NCBI GenBank assembly: GCA_963703295.1
Contig: OY969810.1
Span: forward strand, 1,178,001-1,232,000
DNA from: Bryobacterales bacterium
GTDB taxonomy: Bacteria; Acidobacteriota; Terriglobia; Bryobacterales; Bryobacteraceae
Length of the DNA: 54,000 bases
Direction: 5' to 3'
Of the stretch, positions 24,001 through 30,000 are shown one piece after another (position 1 is the stretch's first letter; the number at the start of each line of letters is the position of its first letter). The position numbers were made by a program.

Positions 24001-27000
24001 TCCTCCCGTATCTCCTGGTTGAAAAACTGCACCAGGCGGCCAACCTGCTCGTTGAGCCCGGCGCGTAAGAGCGCCGGCTCAGCCCGGCTCAATTCCCCTG
24101 TCCACCGGTATTGCAAAAACGAAAGCACGGCGCAAACCACGCCGATCATGGCCAACATGGCCCACTCGACCCGGGCTTGCTCGATATGCTTCACAGCGCT
24201 CCGATGATTTGATCATAGTCAGATTAAGCGCCATGCAAGCGGCGGCATCTGCTTCCATAACACTCCTTAACCTGCGCCGGACCTGCTTACTCATGATTCC
24301 GCCGACGCGCTTCGGCGTACGGAAACCGCCCGCGGCCAGCATCAGAAGCGCGCCGGGCAGCGCGACGCCAATAAACAGCTATCTCGCGATCGTCGGTCTC
24401 CAACGAATCGCGTTCATTCTCCGGTAATAAAACTGAGGTACGCTGTTTCCGACGATGTCCATTCCTCCAAACGCACCCCCGCCGGCCGCCGGCCCCACGC
24501 GCCGCAGGCTATTGATCGATACAGCCAAAGCCATTGCCGCGGCCGCCGCTTTGATGCCGCCCAACGTCCGCAAGGCGCTCGCGCAGGAACCGTCGCAGCG
24601 CGGATCCTTTCGCGACATCAAACACATCGTGATGCTCATGCAGGAGAACCGCTCCTTCGATCACTACTACGGAACCCTCTCCGGCGTGCGCGGGTTCGAT
24701 GATCCGCACGCCATTACCCTCGATACGGGCAAGAGCGTGTTCTATCAGCCCGACGACCAGAATCCAAAAGGCTACACCCTGCCCTTCCACCTGAACACGC
24801 TATCCAGCAGCGCCCAAAAGATTCCCTCGACCAGTCACGCCTGGGCCGTGCAGCACGAAGCCTGGGCCGGCGGACGCATGGACCGTTGGCTGCCCGCGCA
24901 TCGCAAGGCCGACGGCGTGAACGGACCCTATGTCATGGGTTACTACACGCGCGCCGATATTCCATTTCAGTTCGCCCTCGCCGAATCCTTCACCCTTTGC
25001 GATTCCTACTTTTGTTCGGTCATGGGACCCACGTGGCCCAACCGCATGTATTGGATGACCGGAATGATCGATCCGCAAGGGACCGGCGGCGGCCCGATCC
25101 TCCGCAACGTCGCGCCCCCCGGCGGATACACGTGGACCACCTATGCGGAGCGGTTGGAAAATGCCGGCGTGAGTTGGAAGGTCTATCAACAGGAAGACGG
25201 CCACGGCCACAGCATGCTGCAGAACTTCAAAGCTTTTCGCGACGCTCCGTCTACATCGCCGCTCTACCAGAAAGCGCTGGTGCACGCTCCCGAGGGACAA
25301 TTCGAATACGACGCGCGAAACGACAAGCTGCCGGCCGTATCTTGGATCTGCCCTACCAGTTTTCAAAACGAGCATCCGGACCATATGCCGGCCGATGGCG
25401 CGCAGTTTGTAGCGTCCAAGATCGATGCCATCGCCTCCAATCCCGACGTTTGGGCGAAAACGGCCTTCATTCTGAATTATGACGAGAACGATGGCCTCTT
25501 CGACCATGTGCCGCCACCCTTCGCCCCCCAAGGAACGCCCGGCGAATATGTGGACGCGCTTCCCATTGGCGGAGGCTTCCGCGTGCCGTGTATCATCATC
25601 TCGCCATGGACCGCGGGCGGATGGGTCGCCAGCGAATCATTCGACCACACCTCAGTGCTGCAGTTGCTCGAGAAATTTACCGGCGTGCGCGAGCCGAACA
25701 TCACCGACTGGCGCCGCAAGACATTTGGCGATTTGACCTCGGCATTCCGCTTTGGAGACGCGAAAGCGAAGCCGCCGGTAATGCCCAGCACCAGCGGCCT
25801 CGTGAGCTTTGCGCGATTCGGCGCAACTTCGCTACCCAAGCCGGAGCTTCCAGCCGCGGACCAGCAAATGCCGAAACAGGAGCCGGGAAAACGAAACCGG
25901 CTCAAAAGCGACAAAGCTTAACAAGTTGCTGAAAAACACCTGAAATCAGTCAACCGCGGATAAACGCTGATCAACGCAGATCGAAAACATGGGCTTATCC
26001 GCTTTGATTTGCGTTCATCCGCGGCCCATTTGTCTTTTTCACCAGCCTGTTAGCGGCGCACCGCCGAGCCTTTTATCGAAGCGGCTCCCTACTCGCACGG
26101 CAGCCGCCTCCCCTGTTCGCCGACTTTTCCGCGCCGCCCCGCCCAAACCGCCAGAGCCACTGCCAGCGCCAGATCGTCATGTTCCCCCGCGCCATCCGCG
26201 CCCACTCTCACCCGCCCGCTGGCCCGCCTTGCCGAGGTCACATTCAACAGCTCTCTCACCAGCGTCCCCGTCTCGCGCATCCGCCGCGCAATCCTGATCC
26301 GCTTCTGTTCCAGCAGCGCCTGCAATCGCGCCATCAGATCGAGCTTCGGCACATGCCAAACTTTCCCGTCGAACCGTTCCCCCTGCCCGCCCGTAATCCA
26401 CACCGCCGCAATCCCGCACCCCGGACCCGCCGCCCGCAGCATATCCACCACCGGCATCCCCACCCCGGTCGCATCCACCACCAGTTGGCAATCCCCGCGC
26501 AGTTTCGGATCGCGCGCAATCTCCACCACCCGCGCGGTCACATCCGTGTACGGCGTCCCCAACGGCATCCGCTCCAAATGCCGCACCACCCACTCATCCG
26601 CCGCGTTCTCTTTCTGTCTCCAATGGACATAATCAAACGCGCCCGCCGCGCCCTGTACCCGTTCCACCACCGCCACCGCCGAATAATCCCGCCGCTGCCC
26701 CAAATCCACCCCAATCGCAAACATAGTCCGGCTCACAACCACAGCGGATCGTCCCCGCTCAAAGCCGCCTCCACCAGACTGCGCCCGAACCATCCCGACC
26801 CGTCATCCACGAACTCGCACAAATACTCCTGCGCAAACCACCGGCTCCCCAACTCGCGCCGCTCCTCTTCCAGAAATGACGCTGGAATCCGCCCGCACTC
26901 CGTCGCCGGCGCCATATGCCGCTCCCACCCATCGCCGCCGTGCTCCCACAGTTCGTAAAAGAATCCGCGCTTCCCCCACGGCGTGCTCATCACCCACAAA

Positions 27001-30000
27001 TCGCCATCCCCCACCGCCAGCATCGGTCGCAGTGACTTGTAAGTCGCATCCTCCACCCGCGCCGCTTCGTCGATCAACAGCATCGAGACCGCCGAAAACC
27101 CGCGCACCGTCCCTTCCGTCCCCGGCAGTCCCACAATCCGGCTCCCATTCGGCAGCGCCAACGACGTTGCGTTGTCCCCGTCCCCTTTGCGCTTCACTCC
27201 CAACCGCCCCAAAAACCCCGCCGCCTTACGCACAAATTCCCCGCTCTGCCGCTCCGAAGGACTCGCCACCAGCACCAAACTCCCCGGCCGCGTCCAAGCC
27301 CGATGCACCGCCTTTACCGCCAGCACCGTCGATTTCCCCCACTGTCGCGTACAATTCAAAATCCCGCGCTTCGCCCGTGAGTCGAGCACCGCAGCCTGCC
27401 GCTCGTCCGCCACAAACCCGAGCCGCGTCCGCGCAAACTCGCTCTCCGCCATCGCACACGGATTCGCCTCCTCGGCCCGCGTCCCCCGTTTCCAAGCCAT
27501 GAAAACGTCCCTTGCCAGTCCCAGTCGCCTTAACCTCCAGTCCAACTACTACCACGCGCCCCAGTCCAAGCCACTCCCAGAAACCAGCCCAAAATTCTCC
27601 GCCGCCAACGTATCCGGTTCGAATGCAACACTTTGCCCGCGCCCGCCGATTTAGCCGAATACGCGTGACCGGTTTGAGGGAAAATCTGGCAATGCGGTCG
27701 GAACACAAATACGCCCGGATAGAGCGCGAACGCCGATTCCTTCTCGCCGGCGTTCCAAAAGACGCAGAAATCGTCCGCACGCGCCGCATTACCGATCGCT
27801 ACATCGACGGCACGTCCTTGCGTTTACGCCAGATGACCGAAGAACACAGCTCACCCGTTTTCAAGCTCACGCAGAAAATCCCATCGCCCGGCCCCGGCGC
27901 GCAACAAGGTCTCATCACAACCATGTACCTGCGCGAGGACGAACACCTGGTTTTTGCGCAGCTTCCTGCCAGGCAAATCACCAAGACCCGCCATAGCGTC
28001 CCACCTTTCGGCATCGACGTCTTCGAAGGCGAATTAGAAGGCTTGGTGCTGGCCGAAATCGAGTTCGATTCAGCCATGGACGCCGCAGCTATAGTCATTC
28101 CCCCCTTCGCCGTTCGGGAAGTATCCGCTGATGACCGTTTCACGGGAGGCCGCCTCGCCCACACATCGCGGCACGAAATCAAGCTTTGGCTGGAGGACTG
28201 CGGAATTCAGATCTAGTTCGCTCGGAGAACGCGTTTATCGACCGCCACCCTACGCCAAACTCATAAACGAGCAATTTCCAGGACTGAGCGAATGGCTTGT
28301 CGGCGTTTCGCCTCCCAGCGGAACCTGTGGCGAGTTCACACGTTACGGGATGTCTACCTCTGCAAACTCCCGGGAGTGGCGGCGTCTACAACGGCGGCGA
28401 TTTTATCGAGATGCAGTTTCACAAACGGCCATTGTGGCGTGCTCAATACTACATGAGCGATCCGACGTCCCGTAAGGTTCTGCTGATAACGCATGTTCTT
28501 GTCGGCGGTCAAAAGCACGTCGAAACCGGCCCGTTCGGCCTGAGCGAGCAAATCGCCGTTGGTCAGCTTATCCCACCCCCGGTCTTTAGCCTTTGTAACG
28601 GTGTGGCCCTTAAGGATTCGGGCAACGCCTACGGGTGTTACGTGATCAAAGAGAATGAGCATCGGCCGTTTGCGGGGCGGGAGCGTACCCGGAAGGCGGC
28701 GCGTCGAGGCTTCGCGCTGCGAATTCCAACACCGCTACGATCTGCTCCCGCGTGATGTCGAACTGCTCGATAATATCCTCAATGCTGGCGCCTGCTTCAA
28801 TGTTTTCGAACACCGCGGAAACGGGCATCCGGGTGTCGCGAAATACCCACGCGCCGCTTAACTGCCCCGGCACGCTCTCCACGGCGGGACACTGTGACCA
28901 ATTAAGACTAGCCATGCTCTACGCTCTCTTTTCAGGGTACGCCAGACAGTGCGGGAAAATGGGCATGAGGGCAATTGGAAACGCTGCTCCAGACGACGAA
29001 TCGACGTTCCAGTGAACCCTCTTTCCAGGACTCGCGAATCGTCCATGGAGCAAGTCTTTGTTACCGTTGAGGATAGAATCCCGGAGCCGGTCTCATGGAT
29101 TACCGCAAGATCATCACAATCGAATCCGACAAGATGGGCGGCAAGCCGTGCGTCCGCGGTATGCGCATTACAGTCTACGACGTACTGGATCACTTGGCCT
29201 CCGGGATGTCTGAAGACGAGATCTTGCACGACTTTCCCGATCTCACCAACGAAGACATTCGGGCATGCCTCGCCTTTGCCGCCGATCGCGAACGGCGATT
29301 GGCAAGTATTCCGGCGTGAGACTGCTTTTCGATCAGAATCTTTCTCCCGTGTGCATGACTCTGGCAGCTTGTTTCCCCAGCGCGATCCATGTAAGGGACG
29401 TCGGACTTCGGGAGGCAACGACACCACGATTTGGACATACGCCGCGCGGCGCGATAATCACGAAGGACGCCGACTTCCGCCAGAGACGTTTCCTTGAAGG
29501 GCGCCCACCGAAGATTCTCTGGATCCGGCTCGGCAATTGCTCCACAAAGACCATAGAAAATCTCGTCCGGAGCCGGCTCGCCGAAATCGACGAATTTCTT
29601 GCCGATCCGCATCTCCTGATTCTCTAGCTTGGATCGTGCTGCGTTTGCAGATCTGCGCCGCGTGCCCGCGGCAGTCTCAGGCGAGGACGCTGTGAATGTT
29701 CTGAGGGCCGTCTTCGCACAGGCGCCAATTCGAAGAGCGTTCGCCTGGACCTCGCGGTTTACTATCGAAAAATGCTCTGCCTATCGGAGGCGCTCCCGCC
29801 AGTAGCCCCGGGCAGAGGTCGCCATGAGCAATCGCGATGACTTCCGCCTCATGCGCCGCCTCCCGAAGTACGATCACTAAAAGGAAATCGCCGCAAGACC
29901 ATTCAGCGGTCCCTAATTCATGGGAAGGATACTACTCCGGATTTTCCCGATCTGGTCGATTGCAGGATCAAGCTCATCCAGAAATCCCTCTGGAGCCCGC

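What a model noticed while it worked through the whole genome (the two positions that open the first line are those of the whole stretch)
26089..27500. Phage-free split terminase pair (ATPase gene + RNase H nuclease gene) spreading as a two-gene cassette
A terminase large subunit split into an ATPase gene and a nuclease gene, both with intact motifs, occurs at several unrelated places between host genes with no small subunit, portal or capsid. Reading: the pair has left phage satellites and moves as its own cut-and-insert cassette, an IstA/IstB-like use of terminase. New if true: a transposon-like element built from a packaging motor.
Evidence so far: ATPase copies g01093, g02874, g03954; nuclease copies g01092, g02873, g02868 and a broken one at 6367.7 kb; copies 79-86% identical. 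PHROG 7579 and 27743. Found in 8 of 15 other family genomes, up to several loci each, many broken; 14 loci viewed lie beside different host genes and show no phage structural gene within 1.5 kb. In five congeners the flanking genes of this locus match other places than the pair. In distant Acidobacteriota the pair follows a small HTH gene, one beside an integrase.
(Added by a program. Inside this text positions count along the whole contig: contig position 1,178,001 is position 1 of the stretch shown here. "Call 12" and the like, gene names such as g00115 and contig names such as C1 are that model's own, and its searches are not shown. The text may have been shortened before it was handed on; [...] marks where a part breaks off. 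The agent that wrote the report below was given it as the finding of a first reader that could run no searches.)

Follow-up and report, generated by a model that had tools for sequence, protein, structure and literature searches.

The report
Phage-free DNA-packaging module in soil Acidobacteria
These two genes are a split viral DNA-packaging motor that has lost its virus; they travel with an uncharacterised gene found in about 50 copies per genome that leaves a roughly 13-kb one-sided mutation footprint on the DNA behind it, and together they likely load that DNA into the host's own virus-like gene-transfer particles rather than acting as a transposon.

Summary
The split terminase pair is real, intact and under purifying selection, but not an IstA/IstB-like transposon. 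Copies share coding DNA only, with no inverted ends or target duplication. Three of five own-genome places hold one half, and the split is inherited from ordinary phages.

It lies upstream of the ATPase in 71 of 118 informative loci and has 52 copies here. Each F1 runs from a conserved upstream DNA motif to its stop codon. Host DNA behind F1 carries a strand-specific C/G bias that reverses over about 13 kb. Orthologous DNA lacking F1 shows no such ramp, and terminase codon bias flips with F1 orientation. A single-copy GTA-like head-tail cluster occurs in 136 of 151 family genomes.

Best reading (0.45): F1 plus its motif is a packaging-start site, and the orphan terminase loads roughly 13-kb headfuls into host GTA-like particles. 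Against: F1 has no detectable small-terminase homology, no particles were seen, and the footprint is weaker in other genomes. A run-off-replication or transcription cause remains open.

The parts
26089..26724 (-). Large-terminase RNase H nuclease gene, 211 aa (D7, D84, D183-D184)
   Evidence: dN/dS 0.05-0.29 in 9 computable of 15 pairs
26733..27452 (-). Large-terminase ATPase gene, 239 aa (RQWGKS, LLIDEAA, STP)
   Evidence: dN/dS 0.11-0.38 in 16 computable of 28 pairs; ranks 3 of 5658 genes for G-over-C third-position skew
27657..27671 (-). Weak copy of the TCAC box of the F1 motif, about 220 bp before the ATPase
   Evidence: only 6.4 bits here (null 95th percentile 13.6); 17.3 and 20.6 bits at similar distance in the other two own-genome ATPases
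27692..36818 (.). Variable cargo between the outward-facing terminase pair and F1: DUF433/DUF5615-like toxin-antitoxin pairs, SIR2-STAND NTPase-TPR gene (30545-33625), pectinesterase, Phd antitoxin, WG-repeat protein
   Evidence: nearly skew-free at 28-34 kb, which I read as recently acquired
37116..37163 (+). Conserved motif upstream of F1 (TCAC-like box, A tract, CAACCACTTAC); left limit of homology between F1 copies; candidate packaging-start site or promoter
37196..37768 (+). F1: all-helical protein of a large unannotated family; member of the 5-copy subfamily linked to the terminase pair, facing away from it 9.7 kb off
37769..50000 (+). Footprint in host genes behind F1: synonymous C-over-G skew -0.73 at 38-40 kb, fading to about 0 by 44-50 kb
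   Evidence: against collinear G049 DNA, C/G 134:78, then 30:26, then 105:215

Best explanation
The pair is a phage-derived, split DNA-packaging motor kept without any capsid genes, and it likely works in trans with the multi-copy F1 gene, whose upstream motif would act as a packaging-start site, to load about 13 kb of adjacent chromosome into the host's conserved GTA-like heads.

Shown: the split is inherited from phages; the chromosomal copies form one clade under purifying selection; F1 is physically linked to them; F1 copies are bounded by the motif and the stop codon and sit at different places in congeners; host DNA behind F1 acquires a strand bias that reverses at about 6-7 kb; a head-tail cluster is conserved family-wide.

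Inferred: F1 binds its own motif in cis (33 of 50 copies end in Ala-Ala, which I recall as a ClpXP degradation tag) and recruits either this terminase or the cluster's own. A cut at the motif and a headful cut about 13 kb on define a linear piece whose two ends are processed alike during gap repair or recombination, giving the antisymmetric bias. Over-packaging of their own loci would explain why each copy stays under selection and why defence and toxin-antitoxin cargo collects beside them. How copies reach new loci is not shown.
For: Linkage: F1 lies within 3 kb upstream of the ATPase in 65 of 118 informative loci and further off in 6. All 3 own ATPases lie 7.7-12.8 kb from one of a 5-member F1 subfamily (0 of 200,000 random draws). 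50 of 51 nuclease-positive genomes have F1, against 70 of 100 others (kin not independent).

Footprint: around 52 F1 copies the four-fold-site skew runs from -0.30 (0-1 kb) to +0.08 (13-14 kb), z -7.6 to +5.8 against a slope-matched null. 90 multi-copy, mostly IS-like genes show nothing comparable. At 22 sites with F1 in G049 and none in G000, G000 has no ramp and the G049 copy is C-richer in 20 of 22. Over 12 kb at 5 of these sites the C/G:G/C ratio is 2.41, 1.27, 0.85, 0.45. Terminase codons are G-rich in 38 of 38 divergent loci and in 3 of 27 co-directional ones, with repeated switches on the tree, also inside the window's own subclade.

Helper: a GTA-like capsid gene, mostly single-copy at 65-91% identity, is in 136 of 151 genomes; portal, capsid and tail genes at 1,966-1,982 kb. 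Known GTA headfuls are about 5-15 kb (PMC9632790, listing) and 14 kb (PMC2697382, abstract). The C-terminal remnant of the putative small terminase survives beside F1 in 10 loci.
Against: F1 has no detectable kinship to small terminases: only weak PHROG TerS hits at E about 0.05, none to the upstream genes of related phages, hhalign probability 0.4%; it was not found in phages or viral contigs. The GTA-like cluster has its own terminase. About 47 of 52 own F1 copies, and 70 genomes with F1, have no orphan terminase nearby or found. The footprint is weaker and shorter in 20 F1 loci from 6 other genomes (-0.10, -0.07, then +0.03) and absent at the 4 G012 loci. Genes co-oriented with F1 show nearly twice the skew of opposite genes (-0.285 vs -0.158), pointing to a transcription component. 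F1 also obeys a replication rule (18 of 18 co-directional with oriC forks in G013), which by itself can explain the near-flank part of the paired test. Particle producers usually lyse (recalled), so the mark must arise in recipients or survivors, which I cannot show. No particle or read-end data.
Confidence: 0.45

Rival explanations
1. F1 and its motif are a short-range, one-way replication origin (Bartonella-like run-off replication). The bias is a fork footprint, and the terminase pair packages the amplified DNA or merely hitchhikes.
For: The leading strand is C-rich in relative G119 (5 of 6 windows after dnaA at -0.3 to -0.5), so the F1 strand behaves as leading. 21 of 50 F1 copies have a skew minimum 0-15 kb ahead. 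G000 has no oriC-linked skew (-0.009) and the ramp is the same whichever way F1 faces oriC. 18 of 18 F1 follow oriC forks in G013.
Against: F1 matches no initiator, helicase or primase family or fold. A reversal at a fairly fixed distance needs a ruler, which an origin does not supply. Six F1-negative genomes also lack a strong one-sign skew in 16 windows of 4 kb.
Confidence: 0.2
2. F1 is a cis-acting promoter or antiterminator element that drives read-through into host operons. The bias is transcription-associated, and the terminase genes are co-regulated passengers with some non-packaging host role.
For: Genes 0-6 kb behind F1 are 75-78% co-oriented and show the stronger skew. The motif looks like a regulatory site and recurs weakly before the ATPase.
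Against: Opposite-strand genes are biased too. The sign reverses at 9-12 kb in orthologous DNA. Terminase genes with their own motif are G-rich, the opposite sign. It does not explain selection on catalytic terminase residues.
Confidence: 0.17
3. The copies are decaying remains of phage satellites with no present function.
For: Satellite-like relatives with integrase and a putative small terminase occur in other families (7 of 200 genomes carry the nuclease). Many broken copies. Two capsid-bearing, satellite-like regions in G000.
Against: dN/dS 0.05-0.38, motifs intact in over 90% of copies, one long-lived phage-free clade with in-genome duplication, no recurring satellite gene among neighbours of 65 loci.
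Confidence: 0.08
4. The pair is an IstA/IstB-like transposon: the nuclease cuts and inserts, the ATPase selects the target.
For: RNase H fold nuclease beside a P-loop ATPase; many unrelated loci; copies group by genome.
Against: No terminal repeats or target duplication; halves often alone and fused forms exist; split native to phages; nearest solved structure is a terminase nuclease; unlinked full copies are only about 78% alike in DNA.
Confidence: 0.05

Closest known systems
Split large terminases of uncultured tailed phages (PHROG 7579 + 27743; IMG/VR loci L103, L105, L109, L121, L132)
   Same: Same two-gene architecture and motifs; the chromosomal clade is nested among them.
   Different: No portal or capsid nearby; the upstream small-terminase gene is mostly lost or cut to its C-terminus; linked to F1; several copies per chromosome.
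Bartonella GTA with run-off replication (PMC2697382, abstract seen)
   Same: A separate phage-derived locus biases which host DNA a conserved GTA carries; 14-kb pieces.
   Different: One locus and a 461-kb region there; here about 50 mobile one-gene sites with a 13-kb footprint and an extra terminase; no replication gene identified.
Phage satellites (PICI/SaPI type) and lateral transduction (recalled; PMC12829572 and PMC6687093 seen as listings only)
   Same: Bring their own packaging specificity and use a helper's heads; defence cargo travels with them.
   Different: No recurring integrase, replicase or att site at the Bryobacteraceae loci; the presumed helper is a host cluster, not a phage.
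IS21 family (IstA/IstB; features recalled)
   Same: RNase H fold enzyme plus P-loop ATPase in tandem.
   Different: No terminal inverted repeats or target duplication; nuclease and ATPase are terminase-type; ATPase gene comes first.
Non-random GTA packaging in Dinoroseobacter shibae (PMC5786225, passages seen)
   Same: Headful packaging proposed to start at discrete chromosomal sites.
   Different: No motif or gene was found at those peaks; here a gene and a motif mark the candidate sites.

Membership tests
Caudoviricetes large terminase | ATPase with Walker A, Walker B and coupling motif | tested here: met
   121, 126 and 124 of 128; PF03237 over cut-off
Caudoviricetes large terminase | RNase H nuclease with acidic triad | tested here: met
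Caudoviricetes large terminase | DNA translocation into a head through a portal | not testable with these tools
   needs particles or an in vitro assay
IS21 family | Terminal inverted repeats | tested here: not met
   best 7 bp around the window pair against 6-13 bp at random; homology ends at the codons
IS21 family | Target-site duplication | tested here: inconclusive
   none seen, but no clean empty allele was found
IS21 family | IstA DDE transposase and IstB AAA+ families | tested here: not met
   Pfam, PHROG and NCBIfam name terminase families, none of IS21
Phage satellite (PICI-like) | Integrase and replication module at an att site | tested here: not met
   no recurring neighbour but F1 in 65 loci; integrase present in a distant relative
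Phage satellite (PICI-like) | Use of a helper's capsids | not testable with these tools
   candidate helper present
Small terminase (for F1) | Position directly before the large subunit | tested here: inconclusive
   co-directional in 27 loci, divergent in 44
Small terminase (for F1) | Sequence or fold kinship to known TerS | tested here: inconclusive
   weak hits only; fold searches gave generic helical matches
Small terminase (for F1) | Binds the large subunit and the pac site | not tested
Gene transfer agent (for the head-tail cluster) | Conserved, mostly single-copy structural cluster across a host clade | tested here: met
   capsid gene in 136 of 151 genomes; cluster read in G000 and L220
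Gene transfer agent (for the head-tail cluster) | Particles carry host DNA and transfer it | not testable with these tools
   no culture data

The most novel reading that the evidence does not exclude
Bryobacteraceae chromosomes are colonised by a new class of selfish element: a one-gene packaging-start module (motif plus F1), sometimes with its own split terminase, that hijacks a family-wide, undescribed gene transfer agent. It drives its own locus and adjacent defence cargo into particles and has left a readable 13-kb strand-bias footprint at dozens of sites per genome.
Probability: 0.4. Interest if true: 0.92.

Novelty: categorically new. Interest (0 to 1): 0.8.

Why it matters
GTAs are treated as selfless and nearly random. 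Elements that cheat on them by supplying packaging starts would make the question of what maintains GTAs directly testable, in an abundant soil lineage. The work also gives a handle on a very large unannotated family (25,980 clusters at 50% identity, E up to 1e-10) and shows that a mobile gene goes with a positional, strand-specific bias in neighbouring host genes. That footprint stands whichever mechanism is right. I found no description in ten literature searches; the library lacks most subscription papers.

Tried and rejected
1. Pair as the missing terminase of the GTA-like cluster: rejected, the cluster has its own.
2. The 130-bp palindromic repeat at 25919-26053 as an element end: rejected. 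It has some 25 copies genome-wide and abuts only 2 of 5 places.
3. The Ala-Ala-stop ending of F1 as a DNA end motif: unlikely, since codons and stop types vary.
4. 'F1 erases oriC-linked skew': suggested by G119 against G012, not supported by six other F1-negative genomes.
5. 'C-rich means lagging': wrong in G119.
6. The motif as a free-standing cause of skew: 29 motif hits without F1 show none (-0.03).
7. Sequencing runs: no RNA holder listed, and only contigs were available. The 25989-37004 joint has a 36-base side and lies in two repeat copies, so I treat it as an artefact.
8. F1 fold: no match in PDB, BFVD or the wide search (best Z 7.9); this does not show that the fold is new.
9. Nuclease and F1 as single queries in phage and viral collections: nothing.
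10. Complex prediction of F1 with the ATPase: tool unavailable, no verdict.
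Full report
OBSERVATION. The window holds a 239-aa terminase ATPase (26733-27452, -) and a 211-aa RNase H nuclease (26089-26724, -), PHROG 7579 and 27743. A profile of 58 nucleases matches solved terminase nuclease domains with the acidic residues aligned. The genome (8.76 Mb, one contig) has three ATPases, three nucleases and one broken nuclease. Only two places hold both genes; the lone nuclease is a 97% local duplicate. Similarity between copies stops at the start and stop codons, and no inverted or direct repeat beats chance. 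The nuclease occurs in 50 of 150 other family genomes and 7 of 200 from other families of the phylum. Named relatives are mostly Bryobacteraceae, Bryobacterales and Terriglobia. Motifs are intact in over 90% of copies, and dN/dS is 0.05-0.38 where computable (25 of 43 pairs).

ORIGIN. The split is not new. Of nine IMG/VR loci scanned, L103, L105, L109 and L121 have the same pair followed by portal-like and capsid-like genes, and L132 has a small terminase before it. In a quick tree of 170 ATPases the 127 chromosomal rows form one clade (SH-aLRT 97, with one long-branch viral row) among split-terminase phages; copies group by genome and fused forms recur. In 140 chromosomal loci (2.3 Mb), 20 structural queries hit only one, which lies beside the host GTA-like cluster. 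Distant relatives keep a Cys-x2-Cys-type upstream gene that I take for a small terminase by position, one with an integrase. 15 of 129 loci keep that gene or its C-terminal remnant (9 were seeds; control 0 of 129).

THE MISSED PARTNER. Clustering the neighbours of 65 loci gave one dominant recurring family, F1. Among 138 complete loci of 144, 118 show at least 3 kb upstream or an F1. F1 lies within 3 kb in 65 (27 co-directional, 38 divergent), further off in 6, and was not seen in 47. At least four loci were fetched twice by different tools and were not removed. In the window F1 is at 37196-37768, facing away, 9.7 kb from the ATPase. The genome has 52 copies; the five that form the terminase-linked subfamily include one within 13 kb of each ATPase. 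Congeners show the same divergent layout with 12-18 kb gaps, or F1 adjacent and co-directional. The gaps hold CRISPR-Cas I-C, type III-like Cas with RT-Cas1, a methylase and toxin-antitoxin genes. F1 is in 120 of 151 genomes (counts cap near 19; two unpublished genomes, G080 and G105, are in this tally only), has 25,980 clusters at E up to 1e-10, and has no family or fold match.

F1 AS AN ELEMENT. Closely related paralogues share DNA from a conserved upstream motif to about the stop codon. A model trained on these copies scores 49 of 52 at 23 bits or more, with 78 hits genome-wide and 5 on one strand of the reversed genome. dN/dS is 0.03-0.18 in 13 of 14 pairs; 33 of 50 copies end in Ala-Ala against 184 of 7471 genes, which I recall as a ClpXP tag. 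Of 30 F1 loci read in congener G049 (34 matches), 28 have a downstream flank with a match in G000, 2 have a long single-copy upstream match, and 2 share the position. F1 thus moves, sits before host operons and marks breaks in synteny.

THE FOOTPRINT. The terminase genes are among the most G-skewed and F1 genes among the most C-skewed in the genome. Host genes around F1 carry an oriented bias: about -0.13 upstream, -0.30 just behind F1, zero at 10 kb and +0.08 at 13 kb, significant against a slope-matched null; multi-copy IS-like genes show none. At 22 sites filled in G049 and empty in G000 (4 more set aside for a G000 F1 within 10 kb), G000 shows no ramp and G049 is C-richer in 20, with C/G 884 against G/C 401. 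At five of these, chosen for long contigs and strong matches, the ratio falls 2.41, 1.27, 0.85, 0.45 over 12 kb, near above far in 5 of 5. Terminase codons follow F1 orientation (38 of 38 against 3 of 27), and dS saturates between G-rich and C-rich copies of close relatives. Against: the ramp is weaker in 20 loci of six other genomes and absent in G012; co-oriented genes are more biased; F1 follows oriC forks in G013 (18 of 18) but only 33 of 52 in G000; C-rich is the leading strand in G119; F1-negative genomes are not uniformly skewed.

THE HELPER. A cluster at 1,966-1,982 kb encodes its own terminase, portal, capsid and tail proteins. Its capsid gene is in 136 of 151 genomes, mostly once. 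I call it GTA-like by pattern; particles are not shown. A Ku gene is present, a possible joiner for new insertions (inference).

MECHANISM. An antisymmetric bias over a fixed length, starting at a gene tied to a terminase, is what a linear headful with two equivalently processed ends would leave. The length fits known GTAs (PMC2697382, abstract and outline; PMC9632790, listing). I therefore favour F1 plus motif as a packaging start and the pair as a trans-acting motor (0.45), over run-off replication (0.2), transcription (0.17), decay (0.08) and transposition (0.05). The weak links are F1's lack of small-terminase homology, the many F1 copies without an orphan terminase, and the unknown route to new loci.

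LITERATURE. Passages of PMC5900883 and PMC3469429 treat acidobacterial terminase and capsid genes as prophage markers; the passages seen mention no such module. PMC5786225 (passages) reports motif-less GTA packaging peaks. Supplements were not read. Ten searches found no description of the split orphan pair, F1, the footprint or a GTA in this family. Features of IS21, PICIs and ClpXP tags are recalled, not taken from calls.

VERDICT. Observation partly confirmed; transposon reading not supported; what is there is stranger. Interest 0.8.

Noticed in passing
G000:C1:1965800-1982300 (L001, L002): GTA-like head-tail cluster with its own terminase; capsid gene conserved in 136 of 151 family genomes; no description found.
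   Followed up: partly
G119:C1 (L314-L323, L338): Inverted replication skew: the strand leading from dnaA is C-rich (-0.3 to -0.5 at four-fold sites in 5 of 6 windows).
   Followed up: partly
G000 whole genome: No oriC-linked skew, genes 50.0% co-oriented with oriC forks, about 51 local skew minima and maxima.
   Followed up: partly
window 30545-33625: SIR2-like + STAND NTPase + TPR gene, an Avs-like defence candidate, 3 kb from the terminase pair; some such sensors detect terminases (recalled).
   Followed up: no
window 25919-26053 and about 36934-37049: Imperfect palindromic repeats of 115-135 bp with some 25 relatives genome-wide; REP- or MITE-like.
   Followed up: partly
G000:C1:8610200-8618100 (L003) and 4392600-4394500 (L005): Satellite-like regions with an HK97 capsid gene but no terminase found; the first has a recombinase-like and an excisionase-like gene, the second is broken.
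   Followed up: partly
L008:2100-7000 and L299:7800-17500: Type III-like CRISPR-Cas genes with RT-Cas1 between F1 and an ATPase-only copy, shared by G000 and G049.
   Followed up: partly
upstream of F1 at G000 1658895, 2310960, 3447367, 5314990 and of the nuclease at 3259964: The same IS-end-like sequence abuts the left edge of the F1 motif at several loci, suggesting an insertion hotspot.
   Followed up: no
L377, L380 (G332), L053 (G044): Tandem or repeated nuclease-only copies, 7 matches in G332.
   Followed up: no
window 24455-25921: Phosphoesterase (phospholipase C-like) gene with a 71% paralogue at G000 409.7 kb.
   Followed up: no
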